Positions 16,896-41,342 are shown, numbered from the stretch's first letter. The stretch: DNA of 41,342 nt from Escherichia coli (GCA_026712295.1 GCA_026712295.1_4694.1); one strand, 5' to 3'. Notes: generated from the sequence alone by a model not told the origin. A program made the numbers and translations.

Positions 16896-16973
16896 GCAAT
16901 CCGGCCAGCAGTTGTCGTCAATGATAACGAAGGCAAACGTGGCAAAGATAGCAGCAGCAATTAGAAATAGCAT
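16893..16973 (-). CDS. Small hydrophobic peptide (gp1.5 position), 26 aa
   Basis: GGAGGAA RBS then ATG; MLFLIAAAIFATFAFVIIDDNCWPDC. Confidence 0.4.
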   Translation of the reverse strand: MLFLIAAAIFATFAFVIIDDNCWPDC

Positions 16974-16980
16974 GAGGTAG

Positions 16981-17003
16981 TTCCTCCATAGTGAGTCGTA
17001 TAG
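16981..17003 (-). promoter_or_regulatory. T7-type promoter (phi1.5-like)
   Basis: Minus strand TCTATACGACTCACTATGGAGGA. Confidence 0.7.
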
Positions 17004-17046
17004 AAACGCAAAAAGGCCAGCCCCGTTAAGGACTGACCATTTGTCT

Positions 17047-17229
17047 TTACATATTGTTTCGTAGGTACTCTTTGACTTCCTTAATACTATGGCACTCATG
17101 GACAGTAAAGTAGTCCCAAGTTCTCCCGTAGCTTCTCCGGTCATCTCCTTCCATCCACTTTGATATGTGGAATATCATCAGGTGTGGGTGTTGATACACT
17201 CTCCAACCGTTCTCGTCAAAGATAAGCAT
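17047..17229 (-). CDS. gp1.4-like protein, 60 aa
   Basis: ATG overlaps ligase stop (TAATG) with AAGGAGAAA RBS; position as T7 gene 1.4. Confidence 0.5.
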   Translation of the reverse strand: MLIFDENGWRVYQHPHLMIFHISKWMEGDDRRSYGRTWDYFTVHECHSIKEVKEYLRNNM

Positions 17230-18260
17230 TACATTTTCTCCTTTGGGTTATCCTCAGTTCCACGGAACATAACGAACGATGGGTGACGCAGAGAGCCGTC
17301 TGGAGTTTCCTCCATGTAGGCAACCTGACAGGCGAAGCCAGTGTACGGCATACCCATACCCACAGACTCAGCATGTTTGACGGCAGCAGTGAACTCATCC
17401 ATCAACGCTTGGCTAATGTTGTTGGCAGAGACTACACGACCGGACTCCAAGAGAACCTCGAAGCCAATCACTTTACCTTCATTAGCCAGACCCGGAGTAC
17501 CCCAATTGAGTCCAACGATGACACCATCAGCTTCATTCTCAGGCTTCATCTTCCACCAGCCAGACTTCTTGCCACGCTTGTAGACTTCCAGCGGGTCTTT
17601 GACGACCAGACCTTCATGACCATCGGCACGGGCTTTCTCGTAGAGTTCCTGAAGTTCTACCATGTCGTAGACTTCTTTGGCCTCAGATAGTTCCCAAGTG
17701 ATTTCCGGGAAGTGTTCACTAAGAACCGGAATGAGGGAACGCACATGCTCTTGCATCAGGAGGGACATAACGCCGTACTCTTTGCCTTCTACCATATCGT
17801 GATACGGCATAGCAGCATACAGGACAACCTTAAGTTTCTTAGGGTCTAAGCAGAAGTCTACTTTACTCCCCTTGAGAGGCTCTACTCCACCAATATCAAA
17901 TCCACAGTTTGTCTTCTTGAGCCACTTGGTTCTCAGTAGTCCAGACCCTGTGTTGAAGTCTACGCCTTTGACCATCAGTTCACCATCCAGCATGAAGCCA
18001 TCAGGGAAAATCCAGCGGTCATCTTTGAGAACATTAGCCCAGCGTTGGTCGAACCCATTAAGGTGCTCAAGCGCGGGTATGGTCTTGGAGACGCGGGATA
18101 GCCACAGGCAGTCAGCCGTATTGTCAACCACGATGTTACCACGTACACCATCACGCTTAGTGTCAGCAATCAGGTAGCCAGCTTTGTCGAGTGCTTTCTT
18201 AATGGCAGACTCAACGTAGGATACAGCTTTAAAAGGGTTAGTCTTGAATGTGATTTCCAT
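17229..18260 (-). CDS. 1.3: ATP-dependent DNA ligase gp1.3, 343 aa
   Basis: Adenylation motif KRDGVRG, similarity to T7 ligase; AGGAG RBS. Confidence 0.92.
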   Translation of the reverse strand: MEITFKTNPFKAVSYVESAIKKALDKAGYLIADTKRDGVRGNIVVDNTADCLWLSRVSKTIPALEHLNGFDQRWANVLKDDRWIFPDGFMLDGELMVKGVDFNTGSGLLRTKWLKKTNCGFDIGGVEPLKGSKVDFCLDPKKLKVVLYAAMPYHDMVEGKEYGVMSLLMQEHVRSLIPVLSEHFPEITWELSEAKEVYDMVELQELYEKARADGHEGLVVKDPLEVYKRGKKSGWWKMKPENEADGVIVGLNWGTPGLANEGKVIGFEVLLESGRVVSANNISQALMDEFTAAVKHAESVGMGMPYTGFACQVAYMEETPDGSLRHPSFVMFRGTEDNPKEKM

Positions 18261-18297
18261 GATGGAACTCCTATTGTTGGTTATTAAGTAAACAAAA

Positions 18298-18339
18298 GTT
18301 AATCACAAAGGCCACCATTAAGATGACCTTTAGTTTAAC
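18298..18339 (-). promoter_or_regulatory. RNase III-type processing hairpin (R1.3-like)
   Basis: AGTTAATCACAAAGGCCACCATTAAGATGACCTTTAGTTTAAC family member. Confidence 0.55.
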
Positions 18340-18341
18340 TC

Positions 18342-18364
18342 TTTCGCAATAGTGAGTCGTATTA
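18342..18364 (-). promoter_or_regulatory. T7-type promoter (phi1.3-like)
   Basis: Minus strand TAATACGACTCACTATTGCGAAA. Confidence 0.7.
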
Positions 18365-18634
18365 CTTCCAGTGCTTCAGGTCACTGTGAACCTTACGGAG
18401 CCATTCAGTCTGTGCATTACAGCGAACGTCTTCGTCTGACTGTTCGAAACACTTAGCGGTCAGCATTAAGCCATTCCGCAAGGTCACTCGAAGTGTCTCT
18501 CCGGCTACCATCCGACGCTGTGCGAAGTCCTCATAGCGATAAGTCTCAACGACCACATTTGCATCGTGGTCTTCTTTAAGTCGTTCGATAGCGTCTTTAT
18601 ATGCTATTAAGTTACCACTGTATAAGCGACCCAT
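18362..18634 (-). CDS. 1.2: gp1.2 (host dGTPase inhibitor homologue), 90 aa
   Basis: N-terminus MGRLYSGNL and C-terminus LKHWK as in T7 gp1.2. Confidence 0.8.
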   Translation of the reverse strand: MGRLYSGNLIAYKDAIERLKEDHDANVVVETYRYEDFAQRRMVAGETLRVTLRNGLMLTAKCFEQSDEDVRCNAQTEWLRKVHSDLKHWK

Positions 18635-18783
18635 TAGAGTGCCTCCTTCCAGTTACGTTTCTCAGCGTTGCCACGTTGTGTCTTGTGGCGTTTCTTCATG
18701 CGGTCTTTACGTTCCTGCCATTCAGCACCGTGTTCATTGCTTACGTTGTTGCGCTTAGTGGTTGGTTCAAAGTTGGTACGCAT
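18634..18783 (-). CDS. 1.1: gp1.1-like basic protein, 49 aa
   Basis: MRTNFEPTTKRNN..., lysine/arginine-rich, TAATG overlap with gene 1.2; resembles T7 gp1.1. Confidence 0.6.
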   Translation of the reverse strand: MRTNFEPTTKRNNVSNEHGAEWQERKDRMKKRHKTQRGNAEKRNWKEAL

Positions 18784-18814
18784 AATGTTATTTCCTTCTG
18801 TGTAGTTAATGACA

Positions 18815-18858
18815 GTTAATCATGAAGGCCACCAAATGTGATGACCTTGAGTTTAACT
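18815..18858 (-). promoter_or_regulatory. RNase III-type processing hairpin (R1.1-like)
   Basis: AGTTAATCATGAAGGCCACCAAATGTGATGACCTTGAGTTTAAC family member. Confidence 0.55.
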
Positions 18859-18865
18859 TTCAGTG

Positions 18866-18888
18866 TCTCCCATTAGTGAGTCGTATTG
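18866..18888 (-). promoter_or_regulatory. T7-type promoter (phi1.1B-like)
   Basis: Minus strand CAATACGACTCACTAATGGGAGA. Confidence 0.8.
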
Positions 18889-19430
18889 TCTGCAACCTTA
18901 CGTGCAATCTCAATGCGACCCGCTACATCTTTCTTATAATAGGTGAACTCTTTGCGCTCACCATCAGTGCACGTCTGTGTCAGCAGATAGCGGTCGGCTT
19001 GTTCAACCCAATGTAGGCAAGTGACTTGCTTACCACATGAGCCAAGACCCAGCTTGAACTCAGTGCGCTTCCAGCCAGCATCCGGTATGTGAGCAGTAAA
19101 CTTGATAGACGTGATGTCACTGTGAGTGTACTCACGGATGGTACTCTTTGCCTCTTTAAGTTCCTTGCGGTACTCCACTGCCTCAGCGCGTAGACGCTCG
19201 ATGAGTTCTCGTTGGTTCGACATGTCATATTGTTGTTCGAACTCTAAGGTACGGATTCGACCAGCTAGTTCCTGCTTCTCTCGCCAACCATCTTCAAGTC
19301 TCTCTTTGAGTGCATGAGAGTTCTTCTCTTCTTTGATTAGCTTAGTGAGAAATACCTTTGAACGATTATAGTATGTTGCTGCAAGAATGGTTGATACGAG
19401 AGCGCCTACTGAAGTGATTAAAGTAAACAT
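18873..19430 (-). CDS. Hypothetical protein, 185 aa: N-terminal transmembrane helix, coiled-coil middle, Cys-containing C-terminal region
   Basis: ATG with AAGAGGAAACA RBS, immediately downstream of the phi1.1A-like promoter; MFTLITSVGALVSTILAATYY hydrophobic segment; no T7 counterpart recognised. Confidence 0.7.
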   Translation of the reverse strand: MFTLITSVGALVSTILAATYYNRSKVFLTKLIKEEKNSHALKERLEDGWREKQELAGRIRTLEFEQQYDMSNQRELIERLRAEAVEYRKELKEAKSTIREYTHSDITSIKFTAHIPDAGWKRTEFKLGLGSCGKQVTCLHWVEQADRYLLTQTCTDGERKEFTYYKKDVAGRIEIARKVADNTTH

Positions 19431-19489
19431 GATTGTGTTTCCTCTTAAAGTTAGAACTTAAAGTATCTTAAAGTTTAGGAAGCCCGAAG

Positions 19490-19512
19490 GCTCCCAATAG
19501 TGAGTCGTATTA
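19490..19512 (-). promoter_or_regulatory. T7-type promoter (phi1.1A-like)
   Basis: Minus strand TAATACGACTCACTATTGGGAGC. Confidence 0.8.
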
Positions 19513-19519
19513 GATTCCG

Positions 19520-22171
19520 TTAGGCAAACGCAAAGTCTGACTTAAGGATTTCTTGCAGGTCCAGAGAACCTTTAGCTGGCATCTCAGGCATCTTGTCAAG
19601 CTGTGATTCGTGCAACTGGTCAGCAAATTGCTCATAGAAGTCTGCAAGTACATCGTTCTCTTCGTAAGTGTTGACCATCGTTTCACGCACTGCTTTAAAC
19701 AGGTTGCCAGCATCAGCAGGGATAGTACCAAAGGAGTCGTGAATCAGTGCGAACGATTCCACACCGTAGACCTCATTGGAGCGGACCACAGTCATGCGCA
19801 GGTGGCTACCATCCATTGAGTGGACAAAGTTAGGTGCGATGCCTGACTCCTGCTTACGAGCATCAATTCCGCTATCCTTGTTGGTGTTCACGGTAGGCTG
19901 TAGACGAATCTGGCCTAAGAACATCAGGTTCAAGCGTGTCTGTACTGGCTTCTTGTATTCCTGCCAGACCGGGAAGCCATCAGGAGTAACCCAATGTACC
20001 GCACAGCGTTTGCGCAGAACCTCTTTTGTCTTCTTGTCCTTGACTTCAGCAGCCAGCAGTTTAGCAGCAGACTTCAGCCAGTTCATTGCTTCAACCGCAG
20101 CGACCACTGTCACCGTTACCGCGTTCCAAATCAGTTTAGCCATGTAGCCAGCCGCTTGGTTCGGTTGAGTGAACATCAAGCCCTTGCCATCGTCGATAGC
20201 TGGCTGAATTGTATCCTCTAGCACTTGGTCACGGAAGCCATACTCTTTGGAACCATACGCCAAGGTCATAACGGAACGCTTAGTCTCCTTACGAGTAACA
20301 CCGTATGCTAACCATTGACCAGCCAGTTCCTTCGTGCCCAGCTTGAGCTTCTCAGTGATTTCCCCTGTGTCCTTATTGGTCACGGTTTCGACTTCGTTGT
20401 CGGTGCCATTTATTACATCTTGCTTCAGAATCTCGTTGACACGTTCCGCTACGATGCGGTAGATGTCTTGTACCTCTTTGCTTGGCAGCAGGTTAACCGC
20501 ACGACCACCAATCTCATCACGGAGCATCGCGGAGAAGTGCTGAATACCGGAGCAGCTACCATCGAACGCCAGCGGAAGAGAGCAGTTGTAGTTCATCCCG
20601 TGGTGTTGCACACCTGCATACTCGAAGCAGAACGCGAGGAAGCAGAACGGAGAATCTTGCTCGGCCCACCAAGTGTTAGCAATCGGGTCAGCCGCAACGC
20701 TCATGATGTTCTCATGGTTGTCATCAATGAACTTGATGCGTTCTGCAAAGTCCACCTTGTCCACGCCAGCAGTGTTAGCACCGTGAATCTTCAGCCAGTA
20801 GTACCCATCGACACCGATTGGTTTACCTTTAGCCAACGTCAGCAAGCCTTTGGTCATGTCGTTGCCTTGCGGGTTAAACATCGGCACAGCATACACACGA
20901 CCGCGCCAGTCCATGTTCATTGGGAACCAGATAGCTTTGAACTGTGCGAACTTATTGGCCTGACCTAACATGAACTCCATGCTCATGCGGCGTGACACTC
21001 GTGCCTTCTCTTTGCGGTAGATTGCGGAGGCCGCTTTCTTCCACGCTTTCAGAGCCGCTTCGTTCGTGTCGATGTCATCAGGTTTGACCGGGAGTTCTCC
21101 ACGTTCCAGAGCGGGTACATCTTCAACCGGGCAATGCTTCCAGTTCACAATCTCGTTGACCACTGCCAGAACCTTCTTGTTAATCTTCCAAGGAGTATTC
21201 TGTGCGATGTTCACGGCCTTGTAAACTTCAGGCATGTACACATCGTTGTAACGCTCAAGTCCCTTCTTGCTACCAGTGCGAACCAGAGAGAGAGGCTTGC
21301 GACCAGCAGCCCAATAGCCACCACCGACCGGAGAAGTCCAAGGCTTAGGTGGGACCACGCAAGGCTGATACATTGGAGCGATTGCAGCCAGTGCACCAGC
21401 ACGTTTAGATAACAGGTCAACGTATTGTTCGGTCAGTTGGATGTACTCGCCATCCTTCTCGATGTTCCCAGCGAACGGGCGGTGTAACTCAACGAGACCA
21501 GTAGACCCAATGAGCAGTTCCAACATGCGCACACCAACGTGAATTGATTCTTCAGGTGTCCATGTGGTCCACTTGGTTTGCAGTTGACCAGCATCAAGCA
21601 TCTTGCCTTCTACAGCTTGCATGAATGCTTTCTTGTAGACGATACCAACGCGCTTGTTCAGTGCCTCCTGTACGTGGTTCTTAAAGTGCTTCGCTTCTTC
21701 GTCACGGATGCGACCAAAACGCAGTTCATCCTCAATACTGCGACCAATCTTAGTGGCGACCGATTGCAGGTTGGTGAACTCTTCTTTCGTCAAGCAAGCG
21801 AGTGTGACCTTCAGTGTGATAAATGCAGCAGCTTCAGGTGCAACCTTCTGTACCAGATTGTAGGCTACTGGACGCTTGCCACGCTTCGCTTCCACTTCAG
21901 TGAACCAATCGTTCCACGCCTCGATAAACTTCGGTGCGAGAGATGACAGGAGCGGTTTAGCCACTGCGTTATCACCGAACTCACCCGCTTTGATTTGACG
22001 TTCCATTGCCTTAAGAAAACGCTTCTCGCCTTCGGTGTGCGCTTCGTGCTCAAGCTGTAACTGCGTAGCTGCAAGCTGTGCGCCGTAATGGTCAGCCAGA
22101 ATGTTGTATGGCATGATTGCGTTAGCGATGTCAGAGAAGTCGTTCTTTGGTGCGTTGATTACGTTAGTCAT
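19520..22171 (-). CDS. 1: DNA-directed RNA polymerase gp1 (single-subunit), 883 aa
   Basis: Same length as T7 RNAP; long identical blocks (MFNPQGNDMTKGLLTLAKGKPIG, WWAEQDSPFCFLAFCFEYAGVQHHG, AFDGSCSGIQHFSAMLRDE, ALIHDSFGTIPADA, C-terminal FAFA). Confidence 0.97.
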   Translation of the reverse strand: MTNVINAPKNDFSDIANAIMPYNILADHYGAQLAATQLQLEHEAHTEGEKRFLKAMERQIKAGEFGDNAVAKPLLSSLAPKFIEAWNDWFTEVEAKRGKRPVAYNLVQKVAPEAAAFITLKVTLACLTKEEFTNLQSVATKIGRSIEDELRFGRIRDEEAKHFKNHVQEALNKRVGIVYKKAFMQAVEGKMLDAGQLQTKWTTWTPEESIHVGVRMLELLIGSTGLVELHRPFAGNIEKDGEYIQLTEQYVDLLSKRAGALAAIAPMYQPCVVPPKPWTSPVGGGYWAAGRKPLSLVRTGSKKGLERYNDVYMPEVYKAVNIAQNTPWKINKKVLAVVNEIVNWKHCPVEDVPALERGELPVKPDDIDTNEAALKAWKKAASAIYRKEKARVSRRMSMEFMLGQANKFAQFKAIWFPMNMDWRGRVYAVPMFNPQGNDMTKGLLTLAKGKPIGVDGYYWLKIHGANTAGVDKVDFAERIKFIDDNHENIMSVAADPIANTWWAEQDSPFCFLAFCFEYAGVQHHGMNYNCSLPLAFDGSCSGIQHFSAMLRDEIGGRAVNLLPSKEVQDIYRIVAERVNEILKQDVINGTDNEVETVTNKDTGEITEKLKLGTKELAGQWLAYGVTRKETKRSVMTLAYGSKEYGFRDQVLEDTIQPAIDDGKGLMFTQPNQAAGYMAKLIWNAVTVTVVAAVEAMNWLKSAAKLLAAEVKDKKTKEVLRKRCAVHWVTPDGFPVWQEYKKPVQTRLNLMFLGQIRLQPTVNTNKDSGIDARKQESGIAPNFVHSMDGSHLRMTVVRSNEVYGVESFALIHDSFGTIPADAGNLFKAVRETMVNTYEENDVLADFYEQFADQLHESQLDKMPEMPAKGSLDLQEILKSDFAFA

Positions 22172-22194
22172 TGTTGCCTCACGTTGTTAAGAAA

Positions 22195-22240
22195 GTTTAT
22201 CTATAAAGGCCAGCAGTCAGTGCCGACCTTGAAGATACAC
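22195..22240 (-). promoter_or_regulatory. RNase III-type processing hairpin (R1-like)
   Basis: GTTTATCTATAAAGGCCAGCAGTCAGTGCCGACCTTGAAGATACAC between genes 0.7 and 1. Confidence 0.5.
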
Positions 22241-22244
22241 CTTA

Positions 22245-23330
22245 TCAGCCTTGCAGTTGTGCGTCAAGTAACTTGTCAATGTTCAGAGGGAGACCCGCTT
22301 GGATTGCTAGGCGGTCCCCTAGTTGCCACTTGAGGCCGTTCACTTGTTCAACCTTGCGTGCCGCTGAGGGACCATTGCGGAACCAGAAGTTATTCCATGC
22401 AGACCCCATGAGCATCTCAGCGCGGCGTTCGTTCCTATCAATGGCCCTGCGTTCGATGCGACCTTTAACAAACTGTGCCATACCTTTGACGTGTAACTTA
22501 CGGTTACGCTTGCGGCGTTTCATTGCGGCCTTGCGGTTAACCTGAAAGGAGCCGTTAGGGTCACGCTTGGCCTTGCGGTTGCGACATCGTTCAATCATGC
22601 GTTCTTGCGCTACAGCCTCGACCTCGGCCAGCAGTGCTTCAGGGTCCAGAGGGAAACCGTCCTCACGTTCACGGTCATGTGAGAAGCTGACTGGGTCAGT
22701 GATGTACGGAACATCGTTATCGTCGAACATAATGTTCCCGCTGTGCATGTCGAAAGATGCAATCCCTTTGAAGAACTCACGAATCATTTTGCAAGTCTCG
22801 ATGAACTCGTAGTCACCCGGTGCAAAGTCGCTTGCGTCATGGCAATCCGACTCCACAAAGTAACGTGCGAGGTCAGCGTATACCTCATGGTCATAATTAT
22901 CGTCGTCACAGCTATGTAAGCGGTCCAGTACGACCGTATAGCAACCTGCATGACGTGCTACGTGATAGATGTTAGGGATACCCGCTCGGCCTTGGTGCAT
23001 CCTACAGAATGCAGTGTATGCTGCGCCTGAATCCTCTTTCTTAAAGCCAACCTTGATGACTCGACCCGGTAACATTTCGTGCGAGTAGGCCGCACTAAAA
23101 TGACCATTACCCAACATACGAAAACCTGCATCACGCATGAGAGCGCCCAAGGTGTTCCACCAGTCCTGATACTCAAGACACTGCGACCCGTTTGTATCGT
23201 TACCATCGCATGTTTCACCGTTCACGATGTCAGCAGCCAGTGCAACCAGAAGAGGCTGGCGCTTGTCCAAGTCACTAATCGGAAGAGACTTGATGATTTC
23301 CAGACGTGCCTGAATGTCGGTGTAGTTCAT
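22245..23330 (-). CDS. 0.7: Ser/Thr protein kinase and host shut-off protein gp0.7, 361 aa
   Basis: Similar to T7 gp0.7 (LPISDLDKRQ, GNGHFSAAYSH, VIKVGFKKEDSGAAYTAFCRM, GIASFDMHSGNIMF). Confidence 0.9.
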   Translation of the reverse strand: MNYTDIQARLEIIKSLPISDLDKRQPLLVALAADIVNGETCDGNDTNGSQCLEYQDWWNTLGALMRDAGFRMLGNGHFSAAYSHEMLPGRVIKVGFKKEDSGAAYTAFCRMHQGRAGIPNIYHVARHAGCYTVVLDRLHSCDDDNYDHEVYADLARYFVESDCHDASDFAPGDYEFIETCKMIREFFKGIASFDMHSGNIMFDDNDVPYITDPVSFSHDREREDGFPLDPEALLAEVEAVAQERMIERCRNRKAKRDPNGSFQVNRKAAMKRRKRNRKLHVKGMAQFVKGRIERRAIDRNERRAEMLMGSAWNNFWFRNGPSAARKVEQVNGLKWQLGDRLAIQAGLPLNIDKLLDAQLQG

Positions 23331-23355
23331 TAGATTGTGTCCTATTTAGTTAGAT

Positions 23356-23493
23356 TTAGATGTTGTTGAGCTTGCGGTTGGTGCGCAGTTCACGCTTAAG
23401 GCGTTCGATTCGCTGTTTCATTGCGAAGCCATCAGGTGTGCAAACTGTAGCGCCGTTCTTGGTATGGATAGGCATAACGTAATGTTTCAGCAT
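23356..23493 (-). CDS. 0.6: gp0.6-like small protein, 45 aa
   Basis: Track ORF (alternative start) trimmed to ATG at 23493; MLKHYVMPIHTKNGATVCTPDGFAMKQRIERLKRELRTNRK nearly identical to T7 gp0.6A; weak RBS. Confidence 0.65.
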   Translation of the reverse strand: MLKHYVMPIHTKNGATVCTPDGFAMKQRIERLKRELRTNRKLNNI

Positions 23494-23521
23494 GATATTA
23501 ATCCCGTGCGTTGTTTCAAAA

Positions 23522-23569
23522 GTGATAATCATAAAGGCCACTCGCTAGGAGCGACCTTGAGTTTATCAC
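23522..23569 (-). promoter_or_regulatory. RNase III-type processing hairpin (R0.5-like)
   Basis: GTGATAATCATAAAGGCCACTCGCTAGGAGCGACCTTGAGTTTATCAC, reverse complement of the T7 R0.5 sequence. Confidence 0.65.
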
Positions 23570-23614
23570 TGGTTAGACTAAAAGGCTATTGTCCAGTGCG
23601 TGCAAATCGCGCCA

Positions 23615-23815
23615 TCAGTCATTCCAGCCTGCACATGTTGCTTGGTGTATCACGCAGGCTTGGTATTCTTCCTGCGCCAAAACCTCGTTCACCCAATGCG
23701 TGACTTGTTTACCGTATCGTACAACGTAGGTGCTACCCATTGCCCCGTGATCATACTCTCGCAGTGTTACAGTGCATTGACCTTTGATTTTAGATGTTGC
23801 CAGAAGTTTACTCAT
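23615..23815 (-). CDS. Hypothetical protein, 66 aa, at the position of T7 gene 0.4 but unrelated in sequence
   Basis: Track ORF 23615..23860 trimmed to ATG at 23815 with AGGA RBS; MSKLLATSKIKGQCTVTLREYDHGAMGSTYVVRYGKQVTHWVNEVLAQEEYQACVIHQATCAGWND. Confidence 0.5.
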   Translation of the reverse strand: MSKLLATSKIKGQCTVTLREYDHGAMGSTYVVRYGKQVTHWVNEVLAQEEYQACVIHQATCAGWND

Positions 23816-23840
23816 GGTGTTAGTCCTATTGCATGTTAAA

Positions 23841-23888
23841 TGATAATCATGAAAGGCCACTCATATTGAGCGACCTTGAGTTTATCAC
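23841..23888 (-). promoter_or_regulatory. RNase III-type processing hairpin, second near-identical copy
   Basis: TGATAATCATGAAAGGCCACTCATATTGAGCGACCTTGAGTTTATCAC; paralogous to the element at 23522..23569. Confidence 0.55.
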
Positions 23889-24347
23889 TTACTGTACTTG
23901 CCAGCGGCGACCGAACTCATCAATAGTGAAGCAGCCTTTCAGTGCCTCGGTGCGTGGGACTTCTTGGAAGCTACCATGTAGACGTTCAGCTTTGTACCCG
24001 TCGATGCCTTTAGCGTACACTAAGCCAGCCGTGTGAGTCTGTGATTTATAGACCAGCACGCAATCTTGTTCCCACTCATTACATGCCAGACGTGCGACAT
24101 TGAGAACCTGTGCCTTGTCTTTACAACGTACACGGATTGTTTTCTCTTCAGTTGGTGCACTTGAGATGGCTTCGCGGTAACAGCCAGTTAAATCGGTAGA
24201 CTCAACGCTACCATAAAGACCCGGTGCGTTGCGCAGGTTGTTAACCATGTGGCGGTGGCGACTCATGTTGACCTCATCGTCGAGGTTAGAACGGAATGCG
24301 CTTACCAGTACATAGAAAACATTAGCTTGCTCTTTAGTGTGAATCAT
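23889..24347 (-). CDS. 0.3: S-adenosyl-L-methionine hydrolase (T3-type gene 0.3 anti-restriction protein), 152 aa
   Basis: Track ORF trimmed to ATG at 24347 with GAGG RBS; near-identical to T3 SAMase (ANVFYVLVSAFRSNL, RHRHMV, APGLYGSVESTDLTGCYREAISSAPTEEKT, CFTIDEFGRRWQVQ). Confidence 0.9.
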   Translation of the reverse strand: MIHTKEQANVFYVLVSAFRSNLDDEVNMSRHRHMVNNLRNAPGLYGSVESTDLTGCYREAISSAPTEEKTIRVRCKDKAQVLNVARLACNEWEQDCVLVYKSQTHTAGLVYAKGIDGYKAERLHGSFQEVPRTEALKGCFTIDEFGRRWQVQ

Positions 24348-24361
24348 GATGATTGCCTCGA

Positions 24362-24407
24362 TGTTGGTTACAGTGATTATCATAAAGGCTTCTCTTTCGA
24401 GTCACCT
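24362..24407 (-). promoter_or_regulatory. RNase III-type processing hairpin (R0.3-like)
   Basis: TGATTATCATAAAGGCTTCTCTTTCGAGTCACCTTGAGTTAATCGC directly upstream of gene 0.3. Confidence 0.5.
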
Positions 24408-24535
24408 TGAGTTAATCGCTAGTGCCGCCATCTCAAGAGTGCTATTGTCACCAAATTGTTAAAGAGCTTTAAGTGCAGGTTTGTTAGCACCGAGTCCCTT
24501 TCAGTGTAGGACTTCACAAGAACGTTATGTCGTAC

Positions 24536-24565
24536 ATCTTACATCTTGTTGTTGCTACTTGTCAA
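24536..24565 (-). promoter_or_regulatory. Host sigma70 early promoter (A3-like)
   Basis: Minus strand TTGACA - 18 nt - TAAGAT; homologous in sequence and order to T7 A3. Confidence 0.7.
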
Positions 24566-24631
24566 CTACTTTTGTTTCTCACCGTGACACCTCATGTTGT
24601 TTCAGAGGGCGACCAGTTGTTGACGACTGCT

Positions 24632-24660
24632 ATACTACGTTATTGCTTTCGTTGAGTCAA
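24632..24660 (-). promoter_or_regulatory. Host sigma70 early promoter (A2-like)
   Basis: Minus strand TTGACT - 17 nt - TAGTAT. Confidence 0.7.
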
Positions 24661-24766
24661 CCACTTTCGTGTGTCTGGTTGATGACTACTTGAGACATTC
24701 CCGCCTCACCAGATAACTCTAGGTCTTGTCTAGTGGTTGGTAGCGCTGTGTCTCTCAACGGTTGCT

Positions 24767-24795
24767 ATAGTCTCATAAGCTATTATCAATGTCAA
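24767..24795 (-). promoter_or_regulatory. Host sigma70 early promoter (A1-like)
   Basis: Minus strand TTGACA - 17 nt - GACTAT followed by AGCAACCGTTGAGAGACACAGCG, homologous to the T7 A1 region. Confidence 0.65.
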
Positions 24796-24896
24796 CCCTC
24801 AATCTTAAAGAATCTCAAAGTCTCTCTTTAAGTGGTCTTATAGTCTCTTATAGTCTCTTATAGTGGACATAAAGAGAGGATGACCAGTATTAGCTA

Positions 24897-24919
24897 TTCC
24901 TCAATAGTGAGTCGCATTA
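24897..24919 (-). promoter_or_regulatory. T7-type promoter (phiOL-like, left-end replication promoter)
   Basis: Minus strand TAATGCGACTCACTATTGAGGAA, upstream of the sigma70 promoters as phiOL is in T7. Confidence 0.65.
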
Positions 24920-25117
24920 AAGGCTATTGACTATCAGCCACCTTTAAGGCACTATAGGCACTCAGTCGATTCTACTTGTCCCTCTCATCACTCAGGGACT
25001 GCTAAACAGAGTGAGATAGTGATTTCCCTTTGTGACGAAGCCTATTGGTCACTGATAAACATAAGGCACTGACTGAAGGTTAACATAAGGATAGGCAGCC
25101 ATAAGGATAGACATAAG

Positions 25118-25547
25118 GAGGTGACATAAGGTGATAACTCTAGGGTCACTTACAGATAGGGACACAGAGAGGACTACATATAGTGGTCATAAGGTATCAC
25201 TAAGCACCATATCTAGTGGTTACACCTAGAGTTAACCCAATGTCTCACAAAAGGATTGACTTCAGGTAAACCATGAGTTACCATAGAGGAAGGCTCTTTG
25301 GGTGGACTGAAGGAGGCCATAGGGGGGGGGGAGAGGTGACATAAGGTGATAACTCTAGGGTCACTTACAGATAGGGACACAGAGAGGACTACATATAGTG
25401 GTCATAAGGTATCACTAAGCACCATATCTAGTGGTTACACCTAGAGTTAACCCAATGTCTCACAAAAGGATTGACTTCAGGTAAACCATGAGTTACCATA
25501 GAGGAAGGCTCTTTGGGTGGACTGAAGGAGGCCATAGGGGGGGGACT
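25118..25547. repeat. Two adjacent copies of the direct terminal repeat (~214 bp each, 25118..25332 and 25333..25544); junction marks the linear genome ends
   Basis: Copies identical except terminal G-run (10 G vs 8 G); internal motif ACAGATAGGGACACAGAGAG is shared with the T7 terminal repeat; CATAAGG heptamers flank both sides. Confidence 0.8.
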
Positions 25548-28280: not shown

Positions 28281-28838
28281 TTACTTGGCAGGTTTCTCTA
28301 AGGCAGCAATGTGCTTCTCTAGAGCCTTGATAGTGTCGGTCTTAGATACAGCCCCGTCGATGTTACTAGGTTGGAACATAACGGAAGCGCTCTTCCCTTC
28401 GCTGTCCACGAACTGTGTACCAAATTCACTATCAGACGCAGAAAGCGTTGCACCAACTAAGGAAGCCATACCACCTTCAGGTTCAGGGTCAGCACCAGTC
28501 CACTCTTTGTATACGTCGATTCGAACCATACCGAGTCGCTCAGCGCTTTGCTCATTCAGGAACACCGTCATGAACCCGCTACCCGGTTTAGACTCGACGG
28601 AGCCACCCCAAGTGGACATAAGGGTCTCGAACGTAGCATGTTGCTCAGTGGTGCCATCGCTAAGTTGAACAACGTATTCAACCTTAGAGTACCCCTCTAC
28701 CTTAACCATCTCCGAAGCTGGGATGTCGATACGCCCAACACGAATACCAATATTGTTGAGGTCATACACATCACGACTGTCTGGCGAGCGACCATTGATG
28801 GTCCATAGTGTGCGGGTTCTTGAGTTTGTAGTAGCCAT
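28281..28838 (-). CDS. Hypothetical protein, 185 aa, between Rz and the terminase large subunit (no T7 counterpart at this position)
   Basis: ATG at 28836-28838 with strong RBS AAGAAGGAGAAATAAT immediately after the Rz stop; no recognisable motifs. Confidence 0.7.
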   Translation of the reverse strand: MATTNSRTRTLWTINGRSPDSRDVYDLNNIGIRVGRIDIPASEMVKVEGYSKVEYVVQLSDGTTEQHATFETLMSTWGGSVESKPGSGFMTVFLNEQSAERLGMVRIDVYKEWTGADPEPEGGMASLVGATLSASDSEFGTQFVDSEGKSASVMFQPSNIDGAVSKTDTIKALEKHIAALEKPAK

Positions 28839-40038: not shown

Positions 40039-41342
40039 TTAGATACCAGAAGAACGACGCAGGTAGTTACCCTCCCAGCCACAACCAATAACGTTCAGTG
40101 GCGTAGTATGGTCAGAGATAATACGTACTTCATTCAACTGTGCGTTGCCAGCGACCGGGAAGCGGAACTGACCAGTACCAACATTAAGCCCACCAGAGCG
40201 TAACGCATTGGAACCCAAGCGAGCACCCGCCATGTCATAGCTGAACAGTCGAGAGGTGTTCTCCACTTCTACAGTGAATGCACCAGAGTCCTCATAGTTC
40301 ACCCACGCTCGGCGTAACTGCAAGCGCCCAATACCCTCGGTAGCTGTCGAGCCATCATCAGCAGTCTTCTTGATGAGGAACTTAGAGAACACATAACGGA
40401 AGTTGATAGCCAAGCCAACGTAGATTGTCTCATCCTCACGGTTCCCACTCATTGACAACACAGGGACACCATTAGGCCAACCACCACGCGGAGGGTCGAA
40501 CCACGAGACCTGACCATCAGAGGCCACAATGTAGAACCTACCAGTCCAATATTGCATCCCATAGATGTCTACAGGCTTCACAGTGGTAGTGTAAGTGTCA
40601 TCGTTGTAGGCACCTTTAGGAATCACATACTTTATCTTGTTGTCGATGTACAGCCGATATGGTTCATCGTTGAAGTCAATGGAGTTCTTCGTAAAGTGTG
40701 CTCGGCACATCCAAGTGTGGGACTGGTTGCGCAACACAAGGTACATCGTTGAGCCGATAGAGTCACAAGCCAGAACCGTTACGTTACTTCCAAGTTCCCA
40801 ATGTGACCACGACTGTTGAGCAATCTCTTCGTTGAGGTACAGGAATTTGTACAGGAAGATTTTACTCGGAGCGTTCGCAGAGAGCACGGAGATAAAGTTC
40901 TCAGTACCGGAGCCACGAATGGAGAACACACCGTTCGGAATGTAACTTGGAACGTGAGCACTCATATCCTCAGCAGACTTCACGGAGCTAACATCCTGTA
41001 CCGCATAGTAACGGTTAAGTGACGTATAGGAAGCACGAGGTGACGCAAAGTACACACCACGCCCAACGCCAAAAGGTCTCGCTCGGTCTGACACATCGAA
41101 CTCTGTCGTGAGGTTCAACTCTACTGACTTCGGTGAGAGGATACCTTGAGCAGACAACACGAACTGTGCTTGGTCTGACCATAGGAGCAACTCTTCGGAG
41201 AACGGTACAGCGTACTTCAGGATAGAGATTCGGTTATGGGACACAGCCACGTCAATTGGGTCATCGTCGGACAGGTTAGCCACGGACGCAGGGAACAGTG
41301 AGAAATACTTTGATGTACGGGACATTACAATGTTCTCACCAG
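40039..41342 (-). CDS. 12: Tail tubular protein B (gp12), C-terminal part; N-terminal part is at 1..1234 across the circular wrap
   Basis: C-terminus GCGWEGNYLRRSSGI identical to T7 gp12; the track start at 41325 is an artefact of a t/g mismatch with the window-start copy (CTG Leu at 140-142). Confidence 0.9.
   Translation of the reverse strand, partial: GENIVMSRTSKYFSLFPASVANLSDDDPIDVAVSHNRISILKYAVPFSEELLLWSDQAQFVLSAQGILSPKSVELNLTTEFDVSDRARPFGVGRGVYFASPRASYTSLNRYYAVQDVSSVKSAEDMSAHVPSYIPNGVFSIRGSGTENFISVLSANAPSKIFLYKFLYLNEEIAQQSWSHWELGSNVTVLACDSIGSTMYLVLRNQSHTWMCRAHFTKNSIDFNDEPYRLYIDNKIKYVIPKGAYNDDTYTTTVKPVDIYGMQYWTGRFYIVASDGQVSWFDPPRGGWPNGVPVLSMSGNREDETIYVGLAINFRYVFSKFLIKKTADDGSTATEGIGRLQLRRAWVNYEDSGAFTVEVENTSRLFSYDMAGARLGSNALRSGGLNVGTGQFRFPVAGNAQLNEVRIISDHTTPLNVIGCGWEGNYLRRSSGI
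41184..41342. repeat. Window-edge overlap: 41184..41342 repeats 1..159 (circular wrap), one mismatch
   Basis: 159-nt identity except g at 142 versus t at 41325. Confidence 0.95.

What the first reader, a model, noticed from the sequence alone, without database searches (positions are those of the whole stretch)
19520..24347. Mosaic early region: T3-type SAM hydrolase combined with T7-type promoter specificity
Gene 0.3 is clearly the T3-type SAM-cleaving enzyme, not the T7 Ocr DNA mimic. All 17 phage promoters follow the T7 pattern (TAATACGACTCACTA...) rather than the T3 pattern (AATTAACCCTCACTAAAG). The RNAP specificity-loop region reads QPTVNTNKDSGIDARKQ, keeping Asn at the position that is Asn748 in T7 and Asp in T3 by my alignment from memory. 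The genome therefore combines T3-like anti-restriction with T7-like transcription specificity, and its proteins are roughly 70-90% identical to T7.
Basis: partly seen in the sequence, partly recalled or inferred. Interest (0 to 1): 0.45.

Follow-up and report, generated by a model that had tools for sequence, protein, structure and literature searches.

The report
Ordinary Berlinvirus early region, not T3/T7 hybrid
The window is the genome of a T7-like phage of the known genus Berlinvirus, and its pairing of a T3-style SAM-degrading anti-restriction enzyme with T7-looking promoters is common in that genus (though the type phage Berlin lacks the enzyme), not a new T3/T7 hybrid.

Summary
The parts exist. 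Gene 0.3 (23889-24347, minus strand) is a T3-family SAM lyase ("SAMase"): Pfam 1e-42, 91% aa identity to T3. There is no Ocr homologue. Seventeen T7-like promoters lie on the minus strand and there are no T3-type ones. The RNA polymerase carries T7-type R746/N748/R756/Q758 and a T7-identical AT-rich loop.

- The genome is about 96% identical to Enterobacter phage PZJ0206 and 92% to BA14 (genus Berlinvirus). It is equally distant from T7 and T3, at about 70% nt.
- BA14's GenBank record already annotates the same SAMase and 16 near-identical promoters. The 2008 Kvp1 paper describes the same combination.
- Synonymous divergence of gene 0.3 from T3 is high (dS about 1.05), so this is conservation, not recent transfer.
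Protein identity to T7 is 32-83%, not 70-90%. One of the 17 promoters is a copy inside an assembly-artefact duplication. Position -1 of the promoters is T, not T7's A.

The real mosaicism is within the genus: a roughly 430-bp BA14-like patch (24100-24530) in a PZJ0206-like backbone. Interest is low.

The parts
23889..24347 (-). Gene 0.3: SAM lyase (T3 'SAMase'), 152 aa. A GAGG Shine-Dalgarno sits 9 nt upstream of the ATG at 24347. The mechanical ORF runs to 24383 (164 aa), but T3's start aligns with M13.
   Evidence: The E67/E68 acidic pair is conserved (role of E68 from PMC7877911).
24100..24530 (-). Intra-genus recombination patch covering the 5' two-thirds of gene 0.3 plus its leader. It is BA14-like (94.5% nt) but only 79% and partly alignable to PZJ0206, the otherwise closest genome.
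   Evidence: dS(0.3) window-PZJ0206 is 0.68 against a backbone of 0.01-0.15. Window-BA14 is 0.24, close to the BA14 backbone.
23834..23890 (-). RNase III-type processing hairpin after gene 0.3 (R0.5-like).
   Evidence: 84-88% identical to the stretch holding T7's R0.5 site (T7 1408-1482; the site name is from my own knowledge, the T7 record does not annotate it) and to T3's annotated R4.7 site. Folds at -22.7 kcal/mol, z=-5.0.
23615..23815 (-). 66-aa early ORF of unknown function (phrog_6500). 100% identical to PZJ0206, absent from T7 and T3.
23519..23570 (-). Second copy of the RNase III-type hairpin.
   Evidence: 89% repeat of 23838-23889.: -22.1 kcal/mol, z=-4.8.
23356..23532 (-). gp0.6-like small early protein. 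84% identical to T7 gp0.6A, with no hit in the T3 genome.
   Evidence: PF26851 Phage_T7_0_6.
22245..23330 (-). Gene 0.7 seryl-threonyl protein kinase / host shut-off protein, 361 aa.
   Evidence: 53% to T7 and 52% to T3 gp0.7. phrog_2828 at 2e-178. PF27024.
19520..22171 (-). Gene 1: single-subunit RNA polymerase, 883 aa.
   Evidence: Pfam RNA_pol 1e-110 and RPOL_N. 76% T7, 75% T3, 99% BA14 and PZJ0206, 97% Berlin.
19862..19957 (-). RNAP specificity loop (T7 residues 739-770): YKKPVQTRLNLMFLGQIRLQPTVNTNKDSGID. R746, N748 (codon 19928-19930), R756 and Q758 are all T7-type.
   Evidence: Residue roles from PMC11880802 and PMC5937735.
21869..21895 (-). RNAP AT-rich recognition loop, VEAKRGKRP. The AKRGKRP core is identical to T7. 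T3 has SKKGRKP.
24897..24919 (-). Phage promoter phiOL-equivalent, TAATGCGACTCACTATTGAGGAA.
   Evidence: Position matches BA14's annotated phiOL.
19490..19512 (-). Phage promoter phi1.05-equivalent just downstream of gene 1, TAATACGACTCACTATTGGGAGC.

The other minus-strand promoters, given by their -17 coordinate, are: 18888, 18364, 17003, 16895, 16014, 14253, 12226, 11394, 7130, 4517, 3523, 40011, 32176, 26420 and 26131. The last is the duplicate copy.
24536..24660 (-). Candidate host sigma-70 early promoters (TTGACA-18-TAAGAT at 24565-24536; TTGACT-17-TAGTAT at 24660-24632) that would drive genes 0.3 to 1.3.
   Evidence: The number of sites is not above chance. The 24565 site aligns with BA14's annotated host promoter at 834-870.
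17015..17038 (-). Early terminator TE-equivalent after the ligase gene. It marks the end of the host-RNAP early operon that starts upstream of gene 0.3.
   Evidence: Position matches BA14's annotated TE.

Best explanation
The window is a complete, circularly permuted genome of a Berlinvirus (Studiervirinae) on the minus strand. The flagged stretch is that genus's ordinary class I (early) region.

How it most likely works. This sequence of events is inferred from T7/T3 biology.
1. Host RNA polymerase starts at sigma-70 promoters upstream of gene 0.3 and transcribes 0.3, two small ORFs, the 0.7 kinase, gene 1 and on to the TE terminator. The transcript is cut at RNase III hairpins.
2. The first protein made is a SAM lyase. 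It converts S-adenosylmethionine to methylthioadenosine and homoserine lactone, and as shown for T3 it probably also sequesters MetK. This starves SAM-dependent type I restriction and BREX systems, which is the job Ocr does by DNA mimicry in T7.
3. The phage RNA polymerase then reads 16 phage promoters with consensus TAATACGACTCACTAWTGGGAGA. Their binding region (-17 to -5) equals T7's. The polymerase residues that read it (AT-rich loop, R746, N748, R756, Q758) equal T7's. The initiation region has T, not A, at -1.

This SAMase-plus-T7-like-promoter configuration is common in the genus and has been described before. It does not come from a T3 x T7 cross. The only demonstrable mosaicism is a roughly 430-bp BA14-type segment (24100-24530) replacing the PZJ0206-type sequence across the start of gene 0.3. 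That is homologous recombination among co-circulating Berlinviruses at a fast-evolving counter-defence locus.
For: Identity of the phage
- 96.2-96.4% nt identity over 98-100% of the sequence to PZJ0206 (Berlinvirus). 92.3% to BA14. About 70% over 70% of the genome to both T7 and T3.

SAM lyase
-, with E67/E68 conserved.
- Lyase chemistry and the E68 mutant data are in PMC7877911. MetK and BREX roles are from PMC8406200 and bioRxiv 10.1101/2023.02.27.530186 (abstracts only).
- No Ocr homologue.

Promoters
-. BA14's annotated promoters have the same consensus.

RNAP residues
-.

Prior description
- Kvp1 paper PMC2579914.
- At least 25 Berlinvirus-like records annotate SAMase, kinase and RNAP under the match.

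No recent T3 transfer
- dS(0.3, window-T3) is 1.05 and nt identity is 82%.

Intra-genus patch
-.
- The same 164-aa ORF product is found at 100% identity in contigs of four NCBI assemblies. The chimeric allele is therefore not a one-off assembly error.
Against: - dS of gene 0.3 against T3 (1.05) is lower than that of the backbone genes (1.4-2.3, near saturation). An older lateral exchange of the gene between Berlinvirus and Teetrevirus lineages cannot be excluded. The best protein match (94%) is to a Klebsiella Teetrevirus.
- Gene 0.3 is not universal in the genus. Yersinia phage Berlin has none, and some members also carry an Ocr-like gene.
- No function was tested here.
- A secondary source (PMC13600099) says BA14's polymerase/promoter system differed functionally from T7's in 1982 cross-transcription tests. 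'T7-type specificity' may therefore be incomplete.
- The assembly contains artefactual duplications, so sequence details need care.
Confidence: 0.9

Rival explanations
1. One reading: the genome is a recombinant that joined a T3-derived anti-restriction module to a T7-derived transcription system.
For: gp0.3 is 91% identical to T3 while most other proteins are 45-83% identical. The promoter binding region and RNAP contact residues equal T7's. gp0.6 resembles T7 (84%) and gene 1.05 resembles T3 only.
Against: The RNAP is no closer to T7 (76%) than to T3 (75%). The whole genome is equidistant from both. Gene 0.3 against T3 has dS 1.05 and 82% nt identity, so there is no recent common DNA. The same configuration is present in BA14, 285P, Kvp1, FE44, PZJ0206 and others. 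SAMase occurs in 471 phage records of many genera.
Confidence: 0.03
2. Ancient lateral transfer: gene 0.3 moved between the Teetrevirus (T3-like) and Berlinvirus lineages after they split, but long ago. This would explain why it is the best-conserved protein between them.
For: dS 1.05 and dN 0.076 for gene 0.3, against dS 1.4-2.3 and dN 0.13-0.22 for genes 1, 5, 8 and 19. The top protein hit is a Teetrevirus, at 94.1%. The gene is patchily present in the genus, being absent in phage Berlin. The locus demonstrably recombines.
Against: A dS of about 1 is itself close to saturation, and the gene is short (152 codons), so the difference from the backbone is weak. Strong purifying selection on an enzyme that must also bind host MetK explains the low dN without any transfer. 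Holin gene 17.5 shows similar values (dS 1.15, 85% aa).
Confidence: 0.25
3. The mosaic appearance at gene 0.3 is an assembly chimera of two co-occurring Berlinviruses, in an assembly that already shows artefacts.
For: The window has four tandem duplications plus a terminal overlap. These are absent from relatives and differ between sibling assemblies. Two of them frameshift essential genes 10 and 17.
Against: The identical 164-aa ORF and its flanks are found at 99.9-100% identity in contigs of four separate NCBI assemblies. The artefacts seen are tandem duplications, not allele swaps. The patch keeps the reading frame and yields a full-length enzyme.
Confidence: 0.05

Closest known systems
Enterobacter phage PZJ0206 (MT625440; Berlinvirus)
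   Same: 96.2-96.4% nt identity over 98-100% of the window. Same gene order. Kinase and RNAP are 99% identical. The 66-aa and 58-aa early ORFs are 100% identical.
   Different: Gene 0.3 is only 89.5% aa and 83.6% nt identical (dS 0.68), and the leader is poorly alignable. ANI x aligned fraction is about 94.7%, at the species boundary.
Escherichia phage BA14 (EU734171; Berlinvirus BA14)
   Same: Annotated gp0.3 SAMase. 16 annotated phage promoters with the same consensus, tAATACGACTCACTAaTGGGAgA. RNAP 99% identical with an identical specificity loop. The patch at 24100-24530 is 94.5% BA14-like.
   Different: 92.3% nt overall. The 0.3-0.7 intergenic genes differ, and BA14 is unalignable with the window over 23340-23880.
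Kluyvera phage Kvp1 (FJ194439), as described in PMC2579914
   Same: About 90% nt identity over the early region. The paper already reports T3-like Gp0.3/0.6/0.7 together with Berlin-type phage promoters.
   Different: Different host and tail fibre. The paper conflates Ocr with SAMase activity.
Phage T3 gp0.3 SAM lyase (PDB 7OCK, 8BB1)
   Same: 91% aa identity over all 152 residues. E67/E68 conserved. First gene of the early operon.
   Different: 82% nt identity (dS 1.05). The rest of the genome is only about 70% identical. T3 has D749 in its RNAP and AATTAACCCTCACTAAAGGGAGA promoters.
Phage T7 RNA polymerase / class III promoter system
   Same: Promoter positions -17 to -5 are identical in consensus. 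R96, K98, R746, N748, R756 and Q758 are identical. The AT-rich loop is identical.
   Different: The RNAP is only 76% identical. The intercalating hairpin is diverged (HRPFAGNIEKDGEY against HRQNAGVVGQDSET; V237 becomes I). Promoter position -1 is T (15/17) instead of A (16/17 in T7). T7 uses Ocr, not SAMase.

Membership tests
Phage SAM lyase (T3 SAMase family, Pfam PF23780) | Sequence match to the family profile above the curated threshold, over the full length | tested here: met
   145.6 bits against a cut-off of 28, profile positions 1-132 of 133. 91% identical to T3 gp0.3. PDB 7OCK at 3.4e-91.
Phage SAM lyase (T3 SAMase family, Pfam PF23780) | Conserved acidic pair E67/E68 (E68 is equivalent to Svi3-3 Glu69, which binds and orients the substrate) | tested here: met
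   'APTEEKT' is identical at residues 64-70 in the alignment with T3. Role taken from PMC7877911.
Phage SAM lyase (T3 SAMase family, Pfam PF23780) | Cleaves SAM to MTA and homoserine lactone; relieves type I R-M / BREX restriction; binds MetK | not testable with these tools
   Needs an enzyme assay and plating tests.
T7 Ocr DNA-mimic anti-restriction protein | A homologue of T7 gp0.3 (Ocr) encoded in the genome | tested here: not met
   tblastn of T7 Ocr against the window gives no hit at E<=10. There is no minus-strand ORF of 40 aa or more between 24383 and 25213.
T7-type RNAP promoter specificity | Specificity-loop contact residues R746, N748, R756, Q758, and the AT-rich loop | tested here: met
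   All four residues are identical to T7. The AKRGKRP core is identical. T3 differs at 748 (D), 96 (K) and 98 (R).
T7-type RNAP promoter specificity | Promoters with the T7 binding region (-17 TAATACGACTCAC -5; C-G-A at -12 to -10) | tested here: met
   17 minus-strand sites (16 unique). 13/17 have CGA and all have A at -10. Variants G-12 and A-11 also occur. There are 0 T3-type sites.
T7-type RNAP promoter specificity | T7 initiation region TATA|G (A at -1) | tested here: not met
   Position -1 is T in 15/17 and G in 2/17, never A. T7 has A in 16/17, with T only in phi2.5.
T7-type RNAP promoter specificity | Functional cross-recognition: T7 RNAP transcribes these promoters and the reverse | not testable with these tools
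   A second-hand report (PMC13600099 citing Mertens & Hausmann 1982) says the BA14 system differs functionally from T7 and T3. The original paper is not held.
T3-type RNAP promoter specificity | Asp at the position of T7 N748, and AATTAACCCTCACTAAAG promoters | tested here: not met
   Asn at 748. 0 matches at up to 3 mismatches.
Genus Berlinvirus (Studiervirinae) | At least 70% genome-wide nucleotide identity to members (ICTV genus criterion as quoted in PMC13600099), with collinear T7-like gene order | tested here: met
   Identity x aligned fraction is 94.7% for PZJ0206, 86.4% for BA14 and 75.5% for Berlin, against 49.7% for T7 and 49.5% for T3. Gene order.

The most novel reading that the evidence does not exclude
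Berlinvirus polymerases might form a third working specificity class. They share every known T7 promoter-binding contact, yet they may be tuned to a different initiation region (T at -1, A/T at -2) by the diverged intercalating hairpin. If so, they would be partly orthogonal to T7 RNAP despite an identical specificity loop. That would be consistent with the old second-hand report that BA14's system behaves differently from T7's.
Probability: 0.15. Interest if true: 0.4.

Novelty: already known. Interest (0 to 1): 0.12.

Why it matters
It matters little as a discovery. The result places the window as a strain of a known phage genus and removes a false 'T3/T7 hybrid' lead. Three points are modestly useful.
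- Gene 0.3 is shown to be a recombination hot spot among closely related Berlinviruses, as expected for a counter-defence gene.
- The consistent T at -1, paired with T7-identical DNA-contact residues, is a clean natural case for asking what sets initiation-region preference in single-subunit RNA polymerases.
- The assembly carries tandem-duplication artefacts that would mislead gene and promoter counts.

Tried and rejected
- An exact-protein look-up of the 152-aa SAMase found nothing, because gene callers used the 164-aa upstream ATG. The 164-aa form was found.
- An exact 47-mer scan of GTDB species-representative genomes found nothing, so the host or organism of the source assembly stays unknown.
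- Rfam at gathering thresholds gave 0 hits in the window.
- The sigma-70 and terminator scan of 16900-25200 gave counts no higher than shuffles. I used only the sites that coincide with BA14's annotated features.
- Pfam gave nothing for the kinase or the two small ORFs. PHROGs identified the kinase.
- The original BA14 paper (Mertens & Hausmann 1982) is not held, and a search for 'BA14' plus 'SAMase' returned nothing. The cross-transcription statement is therefore second-hand only.
- I considered and rejected a recent T3-to-Berlinvirus transfer of gene 0.3 (dS about 1), and an assembly chimera as the cause of the BA14-like patch.
- The first per-gene table mixed T7 and T3 because both sat in one FASTA file. 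It was redone.


Full report
WHAT THE WINDOW IS

All large ORFs and all phage promoters lie on the minus strand. The two ends of the window overlap by 159 bp. It is therefore a circularly permuted assembly of one T7-like genome.

megablast against 50,697 phage records puts it in genus Berlinvirus (Studiervirinae).
- Enterobacter phage PZJ0206 is 96.4% identical over 100% of the flagged region, and 96.2-96.4% over both halves of the window.
- 285P, nasanit, BA14, BSP161, Kvp1, FE44 and the Yersinia pestis phages Berlin, Yep-phi and Yepe2 follow.
- My own blastn summary is below.

| Genome | Aligned fraction | Identity |
|---|---|---|
| PZJ0206 | 0.98 | 96.2% |
| BA14 | 0.94 | 92.3% |
| Berlin | 0.87 | 86.6% |
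| T7 | 0.71 | 70.4% |
| T3 | 0.70 | 70.8% |

The phage is thus equally far from T7 and T3. The same phage (99.8-100% identity) is present in contigs of four NCBI assemblies: GCA_026712305, GCA_026712325, GCA_026712335 and GCA_026712415.

CHECKING THE OBSERVATION

Gene 0.3
- It lies at 23889-24347(-). A GAGG Shine-Dalgarno sits before the ATG at 24347. The 164-aa ORF from 24383 is only the mechanical maximum.
- It matches Pfam S-AdoMet_lyase at 1.1e-42.
- It is 138/152 identical to T3 gp0.3.
- It matches the solved T3 SAMase chains 7OCK/8BB1 at 3e-91.
- The E67/E68 pair is conserved. Mutation of E68 impairs T3 SAMase (PMC7877911).
- That paper shows these enzymes are lyases, producing MTA and homoserine lactone, not hydrolases.
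- T7 Ocr has no homologue in the window.

Promoters
- The T3 promoter has no match. The T7 15-mer has 17 matches against 1 expected.
- One of those is a weak + strand hit. A 23-mer search gives 17 on the minus strand.
- Their positions correspond one-to-one to BA14's annotated phiOL, 1.05, 1.1, 1.3, 1.5, 1.6, 2.5, 3.8, 4.3, 4.7, 6.5, 9, 10, 13, 17 and OR.
- The exception is phiOR, which appears twice (26420 and 26131). It lies in a 291-bp tandem duplication that is single-copy in PZJ0206, BA14 and sibling assembly L008. The real count is therefore 16.

RNA polymerase
- Alignment with T7 and T3 shows the contact residues in the stretch QTRLNLMFLGQIRLQ: R746, N748, R756 and Q758. All are T7-type. 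T3 has D at the 748 position.
The conclusion was right and the alignment was wrong.
- The AT-rich recognition loop core AKRGKRP is identical to T7, where T3 has SKKGRKP.
- The roles of these residues are taken from PMC11880802 and PMC5937735.

Similarity to T7
- The claim of 70-90% protein identity to T7 is too high. tblastn gives 32-83% for the identifiable T7 homologues, with nearly the same values against T3.

WHY IT IS NOT A T3/T7 MOSAIC

- The RNAP is 76% identical to T7 and 75% to T3. It is 97-99% identical to other Berlinvirus polymerases, all of which carry the same loop.
- BA14's GenBank record annotates gp0.3 and 16 promoters with consensus tAATACGACTCACTAaTGGGAgA, the window's consensus.
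- The 2008 Kvp1 paper states that Kvp1 has T3-like Gp0.3, 0.6 and 0.7, and promoters closest to those of phage Berlin (PMC2579914).
- SAMase homologues are found in 471 phage records of many genera. SAMase is the common solution and Ocr the T7-specific one.
- Codon-level comparison (Nei-Gojobori) gives dS 1.05 and 82% nt identity for gene 0.3 between window and T3. Genes 1, 5, 8 and 19 give dS 1.4-2.3.
- The high protein identity therefore reflects low dN (0.076) under purifying selection, not recently shared DNA.
- The slightly lower dS leaves room for an old inter-genus exchange. I rate that at about 0.25.

WHAT MOSAICISM THERE IS

Against PZJ0206 the backbone dS is 0.01-0.15, but gene 0.3 has dS 0.68 and only 89.5% aa identity. 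Sliding-window and blastn comparisons show the following.

| Window segment | vs BA14 | vs PZJ0206 |
|---|---|---|
| 24100-24530 (leader plus 5' two-thirds of gene 0.3) | 94.5% | 79%, partly alignable |
| 23880-24100 | 86% | 94% |
| 23340-23880 | not alignable | 99.6% |

This is a short homologous-recombination patch between Berlinviruses at the counter-defence gene.

The locus also varies in other ways across the genus.
- Phage Berlin has no gene 0.3.
- P694, P151 and vB_ShiP-A7 carry both an Ocr-like gene and SAMase.

HOW THE REGION WORKS

This account is inferred from T7/T3 biology, with sequence support.
- Candidate sigma-70 promoters sit at 24565-24536 and 24660-24632. The first aligns with a BA14-annotated host promoter.
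- They would drive an early transcript through 0.3, a 66-aa ORF, a gp0.6-like ORF (84% to T7 0.6A), the 0.7 kinase (phrog_2828, 2e-178) and gene 1, ending at a TE-like terminator at 17038-17015.
- Two copies of a 52-bp element (23838-23889 and 23519-23570) fold into bubble-containing hairpins with z about -5. They are 84-88% identical to T3's annotated RNase III site R4.7 and to the stretch of T7 that holds its R0.5 site. That T7 site name comes from my own knowledge, because the T7 record does not annotate it.
- The SAM lyase removes SAM. The RNAP then reads the phage promoters.

A REAL DIFFERENCE FROM T7

- Position -1 is T in 15/17 promoters and never A. Position -2 is T or A.
- T7 has A at -1 in 16/17 promoters, and T only in phi2.5. 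That exception shows T7 RNAP tolerates T at -1.
- The intercalating hairpin is diverged from both T7 and T3.
- A 2026 paper, citing Mertens & Hausmann 1982, says BA14's polymerase/promoter system differed functionally from T7 and T3 in cross-transcription (PMC13600099). I could not read the original.
- 'T7-type specificity' is therefore supported for the binding region and untested for initiation.

VERDICT

The configuration is already known for Berlinvirus. Interest is low.

Noticed in passing
window 2831-3065/3066-3300; 30836-31118/31119-31401; 26073-26363/26362-26652: Three perfect or near-perfect tandem duplications of 235, 283 and 291 bp, all single-copy in PZJ0206 and BA14. The 283- and 291-bp ones are also single-copy in sibling assembly L008, whose held stretch does not reach the 235-bp one. 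The 235-bp one frameshifts the major capsid gene 10 into 89-aa and 330-aa ORFs. The 283-bp one splits tail-fibre gene 17 into 329 and 415 aa. The 291-bp one duplicates the phiOR promoter. Sibling assemblies of the same phage carry different duplications, for example one inside gene 1 in L007. These are assembly artefacts, and the true genome is about 40.2 kb.
   Followed up: yes
window 25118-25329 / 25333-25544; also 1-159 = 41184-41342: The 212-bp direct terminal repeat is present twice in tandem with a 3-bp spacer, as if both ends of the linear genome had been joined. The contig ends overlap by 159 bp inside gene 12, which indicates a circularised assembly.
   Followed up: partly
window 23838-23889 and 23519-23570 (minus strand): Two copies of a 52-bp element that fold into bubble-containing hairpins (z about -5). 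They resemble T3's annotated RNase III site R4.7 and the stretch of T7 that holds its R0.5 site. They flank the 66-aa ORF between genes 0.3 and 0.6.
   Followed up: partly
annotation of relatives: PHROG phrog_2226 and RefSeq re-annotations label the SAM lyase 'SAM-dependent methyltransferase' and the T7-type polymerase 'N4-like RNA polymerase', even in the T3 reference record. These are propagated misnomers. The Kvp1 paper also attributes SAM hydrolase activity to Ocr.
   Followed up: no
L005 (Yersinia phage Berlin); P694, P151 and vB_ShiP-A7 records: The genus type phage Berlin has no SAMase and no Ocr homologue. Other Berlinviruses carry an Ocr-like gene directly upstream of SAMase. The anti-restriction content of the early region varies within the genus.
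   Followed up: partly
window 28281-28838 (-) and 18873-19430 (-): A 185-aa ORF between genes 18.5 and 19 has no T7 or T3 counterpart. It is 99% identical in PZJ0206, and BA14 annotates an ORF of the same size (558 bp) at the same position as 'unknown product'. A second 185-aa gene 1.05 homologue (PF25755 Phage_T3_1_05) matches only T3, at 47% over 70 aa. The functions of both are unknown.
   Followed up: no
L007-L011 (NCBI assemblies GCA_026712305, GCA_026712325, GCA_026712335, GCA_026712415): The same phage (99.8-100% identity) appears as contigs of 2.7-42 kb in several WGS assemblies of one accession series. This suggests a phage carried along with, or contaminating, a set of sequenced cultures. 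The organism was not identified.
   Followed up: partly
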